Positions 34,351-46,127 of a stretch of 64,000 bases of DNA are shown one piece after another. Under the pieces are notes generated by a model. It was not told the origin of the DNA. It saw only the letters and a program-made list of their open reading frames with translations, and did not search any database. Position numbers and translations under genes: made by a program. Source of the DNA: Escherichia phage arall; sequence record MN850584.1, one strand, 5' to 3'. How positions within the stretch are numbered: position 1 is the first letter of the stretch; each line of letters begins with the position of its first letter.

Positions 34351-34412
34351 GATGATAATCATTCTCACTAAGAGAATGAGAATCATTAGCAAATGAGAAT
34401 TTTTCTCATTTA
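34351..34412. promoter_or_regulatory. Nested palindromes including two Fur-box-like sites
   Basis: GATGATAATCATTCTCAC and GAGAATGAGAATCATTAGC resemble the Fur consensus GATAATGATAATCATTATC; plus perfect palindrome AAATGAGAA-TTT-TTCTCATTT. Confidence 0.4.
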
Positions 34413-39435: not shown

Positions 39436-39573
39436 ATGAACGCATCACAGCAGATCGAAAAATTCAACCGCAGCAAGGCGCGTAAAGATTGGAACGAAGA
39501 GATCACCAAAAAAGGCGACAAGCGGAACAAAACAAAGAGAGATCGCAGCACAAAAAGATACTGGAACGAATAA
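39436..39573 (+). CDS. Small highly basic protein (45 aa)
   Basis: AAGAGGA SD; Lys/Arg-rich; followed by terminator. Confidence 0.4.
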   Translation: MNASQQIEKFNRSKARKDWNEEITKKGDKRNKTKRDRSTKRYWNE

Positions 39574-39574
39574 C

Positions 39575-39602
39575 AAAAAAGGGCGCAATAAGCGCCCTTT
39601 TA
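39575..39602 (+). terminator. Rho-independent terminator
   Basis: AAAAAAGGGCGC-AATAA-GCGCCCTTTT. Confidence 0.65.
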
Positions 39603-39612
39603 GCTTATATAG

Positions 39613-43603: not shown

Positions 43604-43987
43604 ATGAGCAATATCATCAACCTGGCAGCGACTGTAAACGGTAAAGATTTTAACGGCGCTGTAGATCGTGATCCTATGTGGTGCTTATCAGTGTTTAAAG
43701 GCGATCTGGTTGAAGTTAGAACAACCGAAGGTTATAGCGACGATTATAAATGCGAGATCCATTTACATAACTGGTACACGGGTAAAACTTATGCGCTGAA
43801 TCATGCGTTTATCGGGAAAATTGAATATCGCGAGATGATCGACGAAGAAACCGGGCAAGATTTTAGCGAAAACGTTTATATTCGTTCAGAAACATTAGCC
43901 GAACGTTTGATCGAGAAAATGAAAGCAAAAAATAAAATTAATTTAACTCATTGGATTGATATAACAAACGATCCAGCTTATCAGTAA
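43604..43987 (+). CDS. Hypothetical protein
   Basis: ATG at 43604 (track start 43529 is the TTG of the -35 hexamer). Confidence 0.55.
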   Translation: MSNIINLAATVNGKDFNGAVDRDPMWCLSVFKGDLVEVRTTEGYSDDYKCEIHLHNWYTGKTYALNHAFIGKIEYREMIDEETGQDFSENVYIRSETLAERLIEKMKAKNKINLTHWIDITNDPAYQ

Positions 43988-44001
43988 ATAACATTCCATA
44001 C

Positions 44002-44029
44002 AAGGGCGCACAAAGCGCCCTTTCTTTTT
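44002..44029 (+). terminator. Rho-independent terminator
   Basis: AAGGGCGC-ACAAA-GCGCCCTTTCTTTTT. Confidence 0.65.
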
Positions 44030-44233
44030 ACCTCAATAAAGATGATAGCTTTTACCTATCAAAAACGTTCACCGAAAAAAGTGAATAGATCGCGGTATCG
44101 AGCTAATCAAGGAGCAGATGAATAACCATACCATGAAGATCATAAGGCGCTTACAACGTGTTTTAGACCGCTTATTTTTAATTTCTTCATGCAACTATCT
44201 GGCAAAAACAGCCTTTTTCTTGTCTTTCCTCTT

Positions 44234-44250
44234 AAATGATAATCATTCTT
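44234..44250. promoter_or_regulatory. Fur-box-like site
   Basis: AAATGATAATCATTCTT; core AATGATAATCATT matches Fur consensus. Confidence 0.35.
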
Positions 44251-44290
44251 ATTTATAGCTGATTATTTATGCAATAAACTGCATAATTCA

Positions 44291-44308
44291 ATAATGATAA
44301 TCATTCTT
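44291..44308. promoter_or_regulatory. Fur-box-like site
   Basis: ATAATGATAATCATTCTT. Confidence 0.35.
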
Positions 44309-44329
44309 AACTTATGACCATCTAACCTA

Positions 44330-44640
44330 TAAAATAATAAGTTATCTAACTAAATTAAAACTAATTATCTTACTTTTATTTATAACTTACTGTTACTATC
44401 TCATTGATAACCTTATATTAAACAACAATAACTAATATAAATCATTACTAAGCTAACTATAATCTATCTAACCCTTAAAACTACAACTATAATCTATCGA
44501 ATTGTTGCACAAAGTAACTATTAAATTGTTAGTAACATTGCTAAATAATTAATATCCTATCTATTTATGATCTAATCTTTACCTTCCTATTTATTACCTA
44601 ACTAATCATTTCATACAGTAATCATTGCATACAGTAACTA
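44330..44640. repeat. G-depleted AT-rich repeat tract
   Basis: Plus strand almost lacks G; repeated CTAACT/AACTATAATCTATC (44454-44467, 44486-44499) and AATCATT-CATACAGTAA (44605-44640) motifs. Confidence 0.5.
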
Positions 44641-44676
44641 TGACAAGAAATATAATTCGCAAGCGTATCATTAGCA

Positions 44677-44845
44677 GCCTATGCCGGACACATAGGCGGC
44701 TAATATTAACGCAACTACACACCCCACATAATAACCATCGGTGATGGTTATTATTTGTGTTTATGTAGCTTGCAACAATTGCAAGCGCAACAATATACAT
44801 GGTATATTGTATTCCCTTACATTGTTGCGGTGCGTTAATATTAGC
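44677..44845. repeat. Cluster of perfect palindromes flanked by an 18-bp inverted repeat
   Basis: Hairpin GCCTATG-ccggaca-CATAGGC (44677-44697); flanking IR GGCTAATATTAACGCAAC / GTTGCG(gtgc)GTTAATATTAGC; internal palindromes ATAACCATC-ggt-GATGGTTAT (44731-44751), CTTGCAA-caa-TTGCAAG (44769-44785), CAATATAC-atg-GTATATTG (44791-44809). Confidence 0.6.
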
Positions 44846-45112
44846 TAATGTTTAGAACATTGGCTATAATATAAGCTGCATATAATAAGCTATACAATAA
44901 TAAACATGGTGAATAATGACCCTGATGATCATAATGCGCCACCCTCCAGGGGGCGCTATGTGTACACAAAAAATCTTTCTTGTCAAGAAAATATTAACAC
45001 TATTGCGCAAAATTATTTACAACTGAATAGATGATTTTTCATACTATTGCCCCTATAACATACCTCATTTGTTGAGCCTACTTTCTTAAAAGCGCAATAA
45101 ATCAGAATTATC

Positions 45113-45141
45113 TTGATTTTTAGGGCGTTTTATAGTATAGA
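45113..45141 (+). promoter_or_regulatory. Candidate promoter (TTGATT-17-TATAGA) with Fur box at predicted start site
   Basis: Weak hexamers; Fur-like 19-mer immediately downstream. Confidence 0.25.
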
Positions 45142-45147
45142 AAATAT

Positions 45148-45166
45148 GCAAATGATAATCATTATC
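45148..45166. promoter_or_regulatory. Fur-box-like operator (best match)
   Basis: GCAAATGATAATCATTATC vs Fur consensus GATAATGATAATCATTATC, 17/19. Confidence 0.45.
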
Positions 45167-45330
45167 AGCTATCTTCCACGGGTGGCACTATTTCACGCCA
45201 GATCATTTCATTTGGCAAGGTGTATATAGATGTTTAGACTTGCCAAGCCATTGATTTACTTAGAATTTATCTGTTTTGTTGTGAGTAGTACCTTTCTTGC
45301 TTAGAAAATAATCAAAAGTCTTATAAGTCA

Positions 45331-45365
45331 TTGAATGATAATGCAAATGATAATTATTCTCATTG
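45331..45365 (+). promoter_or_regulatory. Candidate promoter overlapped by tandem GATAAT Fur-like repeats
   Basis: TTGAATGATAATGCAAATGATAATTATTCTCATTG; -35-like TTGAAT, AT-rich -10 region. Confidence 0.35.
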
Positions 45366-45445
45366 ATATTTGAGGGGGACGGTCGGCAGAAATCGGGGGG
45401 CGCTGAAAATCGCGTTAAGCACCTCTCGCAAGCGAGCAGTGTTTT
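45366..45445 (+). ncRNA. Candidate small RNA (about 80 nt) between Fur-like operator and terminator-like hairpin
   Basis: GC-rich segment with no ORF, ending in CACCTCTCGC-AA-GCGAGCAGTG hairpin followed by TTTT (45420-45445); speculative. Confidence 0.25.
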
Positions 45446-45809
45446 GCGGCAAGTTATTGATATTATTGACTTTACGCTTATGAAAAGGGGGTGTGTCGAA
45501 ATAAATCGGGTATACCGGAAAATTTTTGTGGCATAGATATTTATTTGTCTATATTATGTACAAAGGGGTGTATTAAAAATAATAGGTATATATAGAATAA
45601 TTGATAGGGAAATCCTATACTAAATCCTTCATTAATGATGTTCCTATGTTGCTGTTCTTGTAACAGATGAAAAGACGCTATATGATGTGTGGCATGAGAC
45701 GTAAATTTATAAGATGCAAATAATGCTTGCATTGAATAGAAATGTCTATACACTGTGTTTCATAAGATATGCAATATCGCGCATAACAAACTACTAATGA
45801 GAGGTGTAA

Positions 45810-46127
45810 ATGAGAACCTTAGCTTTGTATATTGATCCTCACTCCATTCGAGAAATGCGAGATGTACAACAGGATTACGAATTCTACCCAGAAATTTGTG
45901 AACGCTATGAAACTATTCTTAGTTCTGTAGAAGATCCAGATACTAGTGAAACAGGTGCTTCCCACTTACTGTGGATGTTGAATGAAATTCAGGATGTGTG
46001 TAATGGTATGTCTGAAACCAAACACCATCGTTGGCTAGGCTATATTCAGGGTGTTATGGTTATGAAAAACCTTATTACAGTGAACGATGAACGTAATGCT
46101 ACACGCCCCGTCTTTAATGGAGCATAA
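45810..46127 (+). CDS. Hypothetical protein
   Basis: 105 aa ORF, ATG with GAGAGG SD. Confidence 0.55.
   Translation: MRTLALYIDPHSIREMRDVQQDYEFYPEICERYETILSSVEDPDTSETGASHLLWMLNEIQDVCNGMSETKHHRWLGYIQGVMVMKNLITVNDERNATRPVFNGA

What the first reader, a model, noticed from the sequence alone, without database searches (positions are those of the whole stretch)
44677..44845. Three tandem perfect palindromes inside a larger inverted repeat: candidate origin or packaging site
Within 170 bp there is a 7-bp hairpin, an 18-bp flanking inverted repeat, and three perfect palindromes each with a 3-nt centre (ATAACCATC-ggt-GATGGTTAT, CTTGCAA-caa-TTGCAAG, CAATATAC-atg-GTATATTG). The locus sits in the largest non-coding region, next to a G-depleted repeat tract. 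This density of cruciform-capable sequence is typical of replication origins, packaging or terminase sites, or multi-site operators.
Basis: seen in the sequence. Interest (0 to 1): 0.6.

Follow-up and report, generated by a model that had tools for sequence, protein, structure and literature searches.

The report
Folded DNA signal beside phage genome end
The palindrome cluster is real: it is a conserved 190-base element that folds as one strand into a three-armed structure 229 bp from the terminal repeat of a phi92-like phage, so it probably helps mature or replicate the genome ends, though its function is untested.

Summary
The window is a circularly permuted phi92-like phage (Justusliebigvirus, Stephanstirmvirinae). 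Its 343-bp direct terminal repeat (DTR) maps to 45075-45417, so the cluster (44663-44851) lies 229 bp left of the genome-end repeat. It is the best-conserved block of a 1.8-kb CDS-free gap.

The element occurs in 132 phage records; every one I inspected is a Stephanstirmvirinae relative. Across 30 distinct sequences the stems keep pairing through double (compensatory) changes. All departures are A.C on the + strand, which are G.T/G.U on the - strand, and never the reverse. The - strand folds better in 30 of 30 sequences.

On the - strand every lineage gives the same fold:
- a 15-bp closing stem;
- two long arms, forming a three-way junction;
- a neighbouring hairpin with an invariant loop.

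The 3-nt "centre" of palindrome 2 covaries with a distal segment. Palindrome 3 is genus-specific. The "three tandem palindromes" are therefore parts of one larger single-strand fold.

No Rfam match, conserved ORF or DnaA box was found. The best reading is a cis-acting genome-end signal for terminal-repeat maturation or packaging, positioned like the T7 pacB/hairpin region (confidence about 0.4). The rivals are a replication origin or priming signal, and a minus-sense non-coding RNA.

The parts
44677..44697 (-). Hairpin H1: 7-bp stem (8 bp with a U.G/T.G closing pair on the - strand) and a nearly invariant loop (+ strand CCGGACA). Extendable to 44670-44704 through ATTAGC/GCTAAT.
   Evidence: 100% paired, with 3 of 7 pairs changed on both sides (GC<->CG twice, UA<->CG).
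44699..44713 (-). Left arm (+ coordinates) of the 15-bp closing stem S, GCTAATATTAACGCA. Pairs with 44831-44845.
   Evidence: 450 of 450 cells are Watson-Crick in 30 sequences, and 4 pairs change on both sides (AT->TA in this window alone, AT->CG, CG<->GC, GC<->CG/AT).
44831..44845 (-). Right arm of closing stem S, TGCGTTAATATTAGC. It contains one ATTAGC box.
44714..44769 (-). Arm C: invariant CAACTACAC, a 5-bp helix (44716-44720 with 44763-44767, fully paired only on the - strand), and palindrome 1 (44728-44754, 12-bp arms, 3-nt loop).
   Evidence: In palindrome 1, 6 of 9 core pairs change on both sides and the loop sequence varies freely (GGT, ACC, GCC, GGC, GAT, CCT, CCA).
44768..44786 (.). 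Palindrome 2, GCTTGCAA-NNN-TTGCAAGC. It is sequence-invariant apart from the 3-nt centre. It can form its own hairpin, or its halves can join arm B and arm C.
   Evidence: The centre triplet covaries with the distal segment at 44821-44828.
44771..44828 (-). Arm B: a long imperfect hairpin (the I4 arms 44772-44798 / 44802-44828). Its tip is palindrome 3 (44790-44810) in Justusliebigvirus and a different hairpin (AAGCGTAAT..ACGCTT) in the other lineages.
   Evidence: (I4).
44605..44677 (+). Upstream boxes related to ATCATTAGCA, spaced about 15 nt apart (TAATCATTTCATACAG, TAATCATTGCATACAG, AATTCGCAAGC, ATCATTAGCAGC).
   Evidence: other lineages carry 3-9 exact ATTAGC copies in the + orientation within about 300 nt of the element, against 0.34 per kb in the window overall.
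44300..44660 (+). G-depleted, AT-rich tract with loose 30-nt repeats. Its sequence is poorly conserved, but the G depletion (5-10% G) is conserved in all lineages.
   Evidence: (D1).
44852..45074. Variable spacer between the element and the DTR. The distance is 229 nt here and about 190-465 nt in the other lineages (my arithmetic from the positions).
45075..45417 (+). Direct terminal repeat. It is present once in this permuted assembly, and its first and last bases are the physical genome ends.
   Evidence: 337 of 343 identical to the annotated phi92 DTR; the BME3 record (342-bp DTR by PhageTerm) ends at window 45416; the Ro121lw record ends exactly at the left boundary.
45066..45085 (+). Conserved left-boundary (cut-site) motif ..TGTTG|AGCC..
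45397..45436 (+). Conserved right-boundary (cut-site) motif AAAATCGCGTTA|AGCACCTCTC, related to the left-boundary motif (GTTR|AGCMC..CTC).

Best explanation
The locus is a cis-acting structured element of the concatemer-junction (genome-end) region of Stephanstirmvirinae phages.

Shown:
- It is one conserved unit of about 190 nt whose helices are maintained by compensatory change.
- Its pairing is complete only on the - strand.
- On that strand it forms a closing stem, two long arms (a three-way junction) and a flanking hairpin with an invariant loop.
- It lies 229 bp left of the 343-bp direct terminal repeat, inside an array of ATTAGC-type boxes and next to a G-poor AT-rich tract.
- Both repeat boundaries carry a conserved, related cut-site motif.

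Inferred:
- During concatemer maturation, the packaging machinery (terminase with accessory nuclease or primase) recognises this region near the right genome end. I assume that end is packaged first, because the early genes lie at the left end. The boxes would provide duplex binding sites.
- The folded - strand, exposed by unwinding or strand displacement, would serve as the structural signal or fold-back point used to duplicate the single junction copy of the repeat and create the right end.
- This parallels the inverted repeat and hairpin intermediate left of the terminal repeat in phage T7.
For: Identity and position:
- The window is 93-96% identical to phi92-like phages.
- The phi92 DTR maps to 45075-45417.
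- BME3 has an independently determined 342-bp DTR (PhageTerm, PMC12210895), and its record ends at window 45416.
- The Phapecoctavirus Ro121lw record ends exactly at the homologous left boundary.
- Both boundaries are conserved islands with a shared motif.

Conservation:
- The element is the most conserved block of the gap, at 0.91-0.96 column conservation against 0.2-0.6 in its flanks.
- It is found in 132 phage records.
- It stays adjacent to the DTR in every lineage, at 190-465 nt.

Structure:
- 13 of 39 pairs change on both sides and 98.4% of cells are paired; no shuffle or slid control reaches these values.
- On the - strand 45 of 45 pairs are 100% paired.
- The same three-way junction appears in 14 lineages.
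- The centre of palindrome 2 covaries with its distal partner.
- The - strand is more stable in 30 of 30 sequences.
- ATTAGC boxes are enriched around the element.

T7 parallel:
- T7 has an imperfect 19-nt inverted repeat with a 3-nt centre, centred 190 bp left of its right terminal repeat. It also folds better on the - strand.
- A hairpin-ended DNA containing the terminal repeat has been reported in T7 infection and linked to repeat duplication (PMC4281155, citing Chung & Hinkle 1990).
Against: - No functional data exist.
- The classical staggered-nick model of repeat duplication does not expose the - strand 230-400 nt left of the repeat.
- The spacing to the DTR is variable (190-465 nt).
- rV5-like LL12, which has a mapped 459-bp DTR, has no comparable hairpin cluster, so such an element is not a general requirement of short-DTR myoviruses.
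- Tolerance of G.U/G.T with strand polarity is at least as typical of an RNA.
- The direction of packaging is assumed, not known.
- The strand asymmetry rests on roughly 6-10 independent substitutions (my count) and could partly reflect the same mutational bias that depletes G in the neighbouring tract.
Confidence: 0.4

Rival explanations
1. Replication origin or priming signal at the right genome end. The ATTAGC boxes would act as initiator sites and the G-poor AT-rich tract (44300-44660) as the unwinding region. The folded - strand would be either a single-strand priming signal on the lagging-strand template of a leftward fork, or the structured 5' part of a leftward primer RNA (ColE1 RNA II or T7 phiOR style). 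This is compatible with the packaging reading, because in T7 the right-end origin and the packaging signals coincide.
For: - A 77% AT, strand-asymmetric tract lies immediately 'downstream' on the - strand, and its composition is conserved although its sequence is not.
- Repeated boxes surround the element.
- The fold has - strand polarity.
- From my own recollection of Chung & Hinkle 1990 (only the citation was seen): T7 plasmid packaging needs a right-end origin next to the junction.
Against: - No DnaA boxes.
- No convincing conserved promoter for a leftward primer RNA.
- The boxes are degenerate in this window (two exact copies).
- GC skew in the window follows coding strand and gives no independent origin signal.
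- No initiator gene lies adjacent.
Confidence: 0.25
2. A stand-alone, minus-sense structured non-coding RNA of about 190 nt or more, encoded at the genome end. Its role would be regulatory, anti-defence or packaging-related. The palindromes would simply be its helices.
For: - A multi-helix junction with 100% standard pairing that includes G.U pairs on one strand only.
- RNA-parameter MFE of -72 to -84 kcal/mol, 10-24 kcal/mol better than the + strand in 30 of 30 sequences, with z = -8.5.
- Invariant loop and junction nucleotides.
- Weak sigma70-like - strand promoter matches with a start 3-37 nt before the closing stem in about 10 of 14 lineages.
Against: - Those promoter matches are no more frequent than chance in AT-rich DNA, and phAPEC8, L033 and L046 lack them.
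- No intrinsic terminator follows the element on the - strand.
- No Rfam family matches even at E<=10 beyond noise.
- All three hairpins have 3-nt loops, and some lineages have loop-less perfect palindromes (phAPEC8 AAGCGTAATTACGCTT; L040 ACAATATACAATTGTATATTGT). An exact loop inversion (GGT<->ACC) is also tolerated. These are features typical of DNA palindromes.
Confidence: 0.2
3. Duplex regulatory DNA: palindromic operators for a dimeric repressor, and/or transcription terminators that insulate the end of the upstream operon from the early promoters in the repeat.
For: - Palindrome 2 and its flanks are sequence-invariant.
- Palindrome 1 followed by a T-rich stretch is flagged as terminator-like on the + strand.
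- A TTGCAA-18-TGgTATATT promoter-like match lies at 44779-44808.
Against: - H1, S and palindrome 1 change sequence while keeping their pairing, which is unexpected for protein half-sites.
- A 15-bp stem closing 117 nt, and the covariation of the palindrome 2 centre with a distal segment, are not explained by operators or terminators.
- A strong terminator already ends the upstream operon at 44002-44030 and no gene lies in between.
- The strand asymmetry of mismatches is not expected for duplex sites.
Confidence: 0.1

Closest known systems
Phage T7 concatemer-junction processing region (pacB / phiOR / inverted repeat giving a hairpin-ended intermediate)
   Same: - Both are non-coding regions just left of the single junction copy of a short direct terminal repeat, at the right genome end.
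- Both contain an inverted repeat with a 3-nt centre. In T7 it is at 39568-39608, centred 190 bp from the repeat; here the element lies 229-412 bp from the repeat.
- In both, the repeat folds better on the - strand.
- Both are proposed to help duplicate the repeat during packaging.
   Different: - No sequence similarity was looked for or is expected.
- T7 has a single imperfect repeat, whereas this is a 190-nt multi-helix junction with perfect stems.
- T7 uses its own RNA polymerase promoter (phiOR) there, and no equivalent is identified here.
- The function here is untested.
Phage T5 injection-stop-signal (iss) region
   Same: A large untranslated region at a genome end, packed with repeats, inverted repeats and palindromes and conserved across relatives (bioRxiv 10.1101/866236).
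   Different: - The T5 region lies inside the 10-kb terminal repeat and carries eight ordered DnaA boxes.
- This element lies outside the 343-bp repeat, and the gap has no DnaA box.
Single-strand initiation signals and complementary-strand origins of ssDNA phages and plasmids (G4 ori(c), M13 minus-strand origin, plasmid sso), cited from my own knowledge
   Same: These are multi-hairpin folds of one specific DNA strand, conserved as structure rather than sequence and recognised by primase or RNA polymerase.
   Different: - They act on genomes that pass through a single-stranded stage.
- No such stage is known for this dsDNA myovirus.
- No sequence or motif match was tested.
Structured phage RNAs encoded near genome ends (phi29 pRNA) or primer RNAs (ColE1 RNA II), cited from my own knowledge
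   Same: These are RNAs of about 120-550 nt with several helices, encoded next to a genome end or origin.
   Different: - No Rfam match.
- No promoter or terminator is defined.
- This phage packages with a terminase, not a pRNA motor.

Membership tests
T7-type terminal-repeat maturation region (pacB/hairpin) | Lies within a few hundred bp to the left of the terminal repeat at the right genome end | tested here: met
   The element ends at 44845 and the DTR starts at 45075. In T7 the inverted-repeat centre lies 190 bp from the repeat.
T7-type terminal-repeat maturation region (pacB/hairpin) | Contains an inverted repeat able to fold back | tested here: met
T7-type terminal-repeat maturation region (pacB/hairpin) | Associated promoter or secondary replication origin (phiOR) reading towards the repeat | tested here: inconclusive
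   Only a weak sigma70-like match was found, TTTACA-18-CATACT at 45016-45045 on the + strand. It is not conserved across genera.
T7-type terminal-repeat maturation region (pacB/hairpin) | Required in cis for packaging; a hairpin-ended intermediate is detectable in infected cells | not testable with these tools
   Needs plasmid-transduction assays and alkaline or snap-back gels.
T5 injection-stop-signal region | Located inside the terminal repeat | tested here: not met
   The element (44663-44851) lies outside the DTR (45075-45417).
T5 injection-stop-signal region | Ordered series of DnaA boxes | tested here: not met
   No TT[AT]TNCACA, nor a relaxed version, occurs in 44030-45810 on either strand.
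Described structured RNA family (Rfam) | Match to a curated covariance model | tested here: not met
   The best hits score 16-21 bits against gathering scores of 48-100, with E of 0.3-9.
Structured non-coding RNA (generic) | Covariation-supported secondary structure on one strand | tested here: met
Structured non-coding RNA (generic) | Promoter and terminator that delimit a transcript; evidence of transcription | tested here: inconclusive
   Only weak promoter-like matches that are not consistently conserved, and no terminator on the - strand. No expression data are available.
Replication origin | AT-rich unwinding tract next to repeated binding sites | tested here: inconclusive
   A 77% AT, G-poor tract and ATTAGC boxes are present, but the binding protein is unknown and the boxes are degenerate in this window.
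Replication origin | Initiation mapped to the site | not testable with these tools
   Needs marker-frequency analysis or 2D gels.
Palindromic operator array | Sequence-conserved symmetric half-sites | tested here: not met
   This holds only for palindrome 2. H1, S and palindrome 1 vary by compensatory changes.
Intrinsic terminator | G+C-rich hairpin followed by a U tract at the end of a transcription unit | tested here: inconclusive
   Palindrome 1 is flagged on the + strand, but only 3 of its 12 pairs are G-C. This does not account for the other helices.
Protein-coding gene (64-aa ORF 44606-44800, - strand) | Reading frame conserved in relatives | tested here: not met
   Stops or frameshifts occur in 28 of the 29 other sequences, including relatives about 95% identical to the window.

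The most novel reading that the evidence does not exclude
The element is a previously undescribed class of strand-specific structured nucleic acid encoded at the end of a large lytic phage genome. It would be either a minus-sense RNA that takes part in packaging or replication priming (a terminase-phage counterpart of phi29 pRNA or of a primer RNA), or a single-stranded DNA three-way junction read directly by the end-maturation machinery. The invariant palindrome 2 would act as a switch between two exclusive folds.
Probability: 0.25. Interest if true: 0.8.

Novelty: new variant of a known kind. Interest (0 to 1): 0.55.

Why it matters
It remains unclear how phages with short direct terminal repeats recognise the concatemer junction and duplicate the repeat, even for T7. 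For the phi92/phAPEC8 group, which is widely used in phage-therapy collections, nothing is known beyond the repeat length.

This work defines, in sequence terms, a full candidate junction module:
- two conserved cut-site motifs;
- the repeat with its early promoters;
- a variable spacer;
- a strongly covarying, strand-specific three-way-junction element with flanking boxes.

That makes the question directly testable with compensatory mutants and plasmid-packaging assays. It also gives annotators a marker for the true genome ends in about 130 deposited genomes, most of which are arbitrarily permuted. If the folded molecule turns out to be an RNA, it would be a new phage non-coding RNA family.

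Tried and rejected
- Rfam scan of 43900-45900 at E<=10: only noise.
- Coding hypothesis for the 64-aa - strand ORF: rejected, because the frame is broken in close relatives.
- Protein-anchored retrieval with the upstream gene: gave only 5 viral contigs. Loci L005-L008 (61-82% protein identity) share no detectable DNA similarity downstream of the gene and lack the element and boundary motifs. L006 and L008 have their own hairpin cluster.
- Pattern scans: about two thirds of the metagenome hits (22 of 34) were chance matches and were filtered out by requiring the palindrome 2 block. The scan with the right-boundary motif added no new lineage. The single bacterial-genome hit (L124) was a chance match.
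- rV5-like LL12 with a mapped DTR: no comparable hairpin cluster, so the element does not generalise to Vequintavirinae.
- Search for a conserved sigma70 promoter driving a - strand transcript: weak hits only, at about chance density.
- DnaA boxes: none. Two IHF-like matches inside or just right of the DTR and distant Chi sites are not informative.
- The cut-site pattern derived from other lineages does not match this window's diverged left boundary.
- The phi92 genome paper (Schwarzer et al. 2012) could not be read. How its termini were mapped is therefore taken from the GenBank annotation only.
- Literature searches found no description of this element.
- I did not build a covariance model. 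BLAST-level searches already recovered the same 132 records from two divergent queries.

Full report
**What the window is.** The region 44200-45400 is 93-96% identical to about 60 phi92-like coliphages (Justusliebigvirus, subfamily Stephanstirmvirinae). In the phi92 record (FR775895.2) the homologous DNA runs to the right end of the linear genome, which carries an annotated 343-bp direct terminal repeat (DTR) at both ends. The phi92 DTR aligns without gaps to window 45075-45417, with 337 of 343 bases identical. The window is therefore a circularly permuted assembly in which the repeat appears once, as it would in a concatemer junction.

Two independent pieces of support for the ends:
- Phage BME3 has a 342-bp DTR determined from reads with PhageTerm (PMC12210895), and its record ends at window position 45416.
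- The record of the Phapecoctavirus Ro121lw ends exactly at the position homologous to the left boundary.

**The observation.** The arm lengths need correcting:
- palindrome 1 has 12-bp arms (44728-44754);
- palindrome 2 has 8-bp arms (44768-44786);
- palindrome 3 has 9-bp arms (44790-44810);
- the flanking repeat is 15 perfect bp (44699-44713 / 44831-44845), not 18;
- the first hairpin has a 7-bp core (44677-44697), extendable to 14 bp.

The window holds 39 perfect hairpins with stems of at least 8 bp. Only here do three lie within 83 nt. Folding 44663-44851 gives z-scores of -6.1 to -9.1 against dinucleotide shuffles. The neighbouring tract 44300-44660 contains 5.3% G.

**Context.** The element sits in a CDS-free gap of about 1.78 kb (44031-45809). 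The gap runs from the terminator of the gp248 homologue (44002-44030) to the first early gene. It is colinear at about 60% identity in nine lineages, with a few conserved islands:
- the terminator;
- a pair of Fur-box-like sites;
- the element itself, which has the highest conservation at 0.91-0.96;
- the two DTR boundaries.

The boundaries share a motif. The left boundary is (A/T)TGTTG|AGC(C/A).CTTCTC and the right boundary is AAAATCGCGTTA|AGCACCTCTC. This fits a common cutting enzyme and confirms that the ends are conserved across genera. The element ends 229 nt from the left boundary here and 190-465 nt from it elsewhere.

**Distribution.** Two divergent queries each recover the same number of phage records, 132. 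These are Justusliebigvirus, Phapecoctavirus and unclassified Klebsiella and Citrobacter relatives. Pattern scans added metagenomic lineages. After chance matches were removed, 30 distinct sequences were available.

**Structure.** RNAalifold on 21 + strand sequences predicts H1, the closing stem S, palindrome 1 and palindrome 2. Counting pairs on that structure gives:
- 98.4% of 819 cells paired;
- 13 of 39 pairs with changes on both sides;
- 0 of 500 shuffles reaching the observed percentage paired or covariation score;
- slid controls at 22-47% paired.

None of the changes is one-sided. All 13 departures from Watson-Crick pairing are A.C or C.A on the + strand, which correspond to G.T/G.U on the - strand. 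No G.T occurs on the + strand in these helices.

Folding the reverse complements gives 45 of 45 consensus pairs with 100% of 810 cells paired. This includes an extra helix around palindrome 1 and a closing pair on H1 that exist only on the - strand. The - strand is more stable in 30 of 30 sequences: by 10-24 kcal/mol with RNA parameters and by 2-8.5 kcal/mol with DNA parameters.

The - strand minimum-energy fold has the same architecture in all 14 lineages examined:
- closing stem S;
- arm B, a long hairpin;
- arm C, a short helix plus palindrome 1;
- the external hairpin H1.

Arm B consumes both halves of palindrome 2. The variable 3-nt "centre" of palindrome 2 covaries with a distal segment: CAA/TTG, TAA/TTA, TTA/TAA, TGA/TCA and TGA/TTA. 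Palindrome 2 is otherwise invariant, together with its flanks, with CAACTACAC and with the H1 loop. Palindrome 3 is only the tip of arm B in Justusliebigvirus. Other lineages carry a different hairpin there, about 20 nt shorter. The "three tandem palindromes" are therefore pieces of one larger, strand-specific fold.

**What it is not.**
- Not a gene: the 64-aa - strand ORF is broken in 28 of the 29 other sequences, including close relatives.
- Not a described RNA family.
- Not a T5-like injection-stop region or a DnaA-type origin: there are no DnaA boxes and the element lies outside the repeat.
- Not simple duplex operators: three of the four helices change sequence while keeping their pairing.

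**RNA or DNA.** This is unresolved.

For RNA:
- a multi-helix junction;
- tolerance of G.U pairs;
- strand polarity.

Against RNA, or for DNA:
- no convincing conserved promoter and no terminator for a leftward transcript;
- three stems with 3-nt loops;
- loop-less perfect palindromes in some lineages;
- an exact inversion of the palindrome 1 loop (GGT in this window, ACC in phi92). This is the signature of template switching between inverted-repeat arms in DNA (PMC8604942, seen).

The strand asymmetry rests on roughly 6-10 independent substitutions, by my count. It could be inflated by the same mutational bias that depletes G in the neighbouring tract.

**Function.** Position is the main clue. 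In T7, the region left of the terminal repeat at the right end holds the packaging signals, a secondary origin and an inverted repeat. A hairpin-ended DNA containing the repeat has been reported there and linked to repeat duplication (PMC4281155, citing Chung & Hinkle 1990; the further details are my recollection). I checked the T7 sequence directly. An imperfect 19-nt inverted repeat with a 3-nt centre lies at 39568-39608. Its centre is 190 bp from the repeat, taking the repeat as 160 bp, and it also folds better on the - strand.

The present element occupies the equivalent place and is embedded in + oriented ATTAGC-type boxes. It is adjacent to a conserved cut-site motif. I therefore favour a cis-acting role in terminal-repeat maturation and packaging initiation (0.4). 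The alternatives are a right-end origin or priming signal (0.25, not exclusive of the first), a minus-sense non-coding RNA (0.2), and duplex regulatory DNA (0.1).

A caution: rV5-like LL12, whose 459-bp repeat was mapped by PhageTerm (PMC6658697), has a G-poor tract left of its repeat but no comparable hairpin cluster.

**Novelty.** Searches of the held literature found no description of this element or of the boundary motifs. I rate it a new variant of a known kind, namely structured cis-elements beside phage terminal repeats. Interest is moderate to fairly high (0.55), because the covariation and strand specificity are unusually clean and make the mechanism directly testable.

Noticed in passing
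window 45066-45085 and 45397-45436: Both boundaries of the direct terminal repeat are conserved islands across genera and share a motif: GTTG|AGC(C/A).CTTCTC on the left and CGCGTTA|AGCACCTCTC on the right. A GGGGGCG..AAATCG-type module precedes them, and further copies lie at about 45372, 45485 and 45562. These are probably the terminase or nuclease recognition and cut sites.
   Followed up: partly
window 44235-44247, 44293-44305, 45151-45163, 45346-45358; also 34351-34387: Near-consensus Fur-box sequences (AATGATAATCATT; the site at 45146-45168 matches 17 of 19 positions of GATAATGATAATCATTATC as I recall the consensus). There are ten matches with at most 1 mismatch, against 0.5 expected. 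Two lie inside the repeat, just downstream of sigma70-like promoters, and they are conserved in other lineages. This may reflect iron or Fur control of early transcription, or a look-alike site for a phage regulator.
   Followed up: partly
window 35713, 36158, 37721, 38136, 39020, 41330, 41698, 42710 (+ strand): Eight near-consensus sigma70 promoters (TTGACA-N17-TAnnAT) are each followed, about 8 nt after the -10, by the same hairpin, GCGGGAAA-TGG-TTTCCCGC, and then by an RBS and a small gene. These are repeated promoter plus 5'-stem-loop cassettes, reminiscent of the PeSL cassettes of T4-type phages (from my own knowledge).
   Followed up: partly
window 44300-44660; L134 (LL12) 1201-1500: G depletion on the + strand (5-10% G) left of the element is conserved in all Stephanstirmvirinae lineages even though the sequence is not. 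A G-poor tract also lies left of the DTR in rV5-like LL12.
   Followed up: partly
window 44740-44742 versus L001 (phi92): The 3-nt loop of palindrome 1 is GGT here and its exact reverse complement, ACC, in phi92, UAB_1 and others, with the arms kept. This is a spacer inversion of the kind produced by template switching between inverted-repeat arms.
   Followed up: partly
L011 (KP13-26), L012 (Tr1), L033, L046, L125 (FKP3): The left-boundary motif GTTGAGC occurs two or three times, 58-69 nt apart, in some lineages. These tandem duplications of the cut-site module lengthen the spacer between the element and the repeat.
   Followed up: no
L006 5853-6300 and L008 6082-6560: More distant phages that share only the upstream gene (62-65% protein identity) have their own cluster of 5-6 perfect 7-8-bp hairpins in the corresponding non-coding region. 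One hairpin differs by a compensatory change between the two (ATCATTAC/GTAATGAT versus ATGATTAC/GTAATCAT).
   Followed up: no
search hits H12-H15, H45, H46, H67 and others: Records labelled Campylobacter, Pseudomonas, Acinetobacter or Serratia phage carry this region. The Campylobacter records are about 95% identical to the window here, and the Acinetobacter record ABPW7 has the Phapecoctavirus form (about 83%). The host labels are probably unreliable, or reflect contaminating coliphages.
   Followed up: no
L133 (T7) 39568-39608: The T7 inverted repeat centred 190 bp left of the right terminal repeat has two C.A/A.C mismatches on the + strand. It therefore folds better on the - strand (-11.1 versus -7.2 kcal/mol, DNA parameters), the same polarity as the element studied here.
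   Followed up: partly
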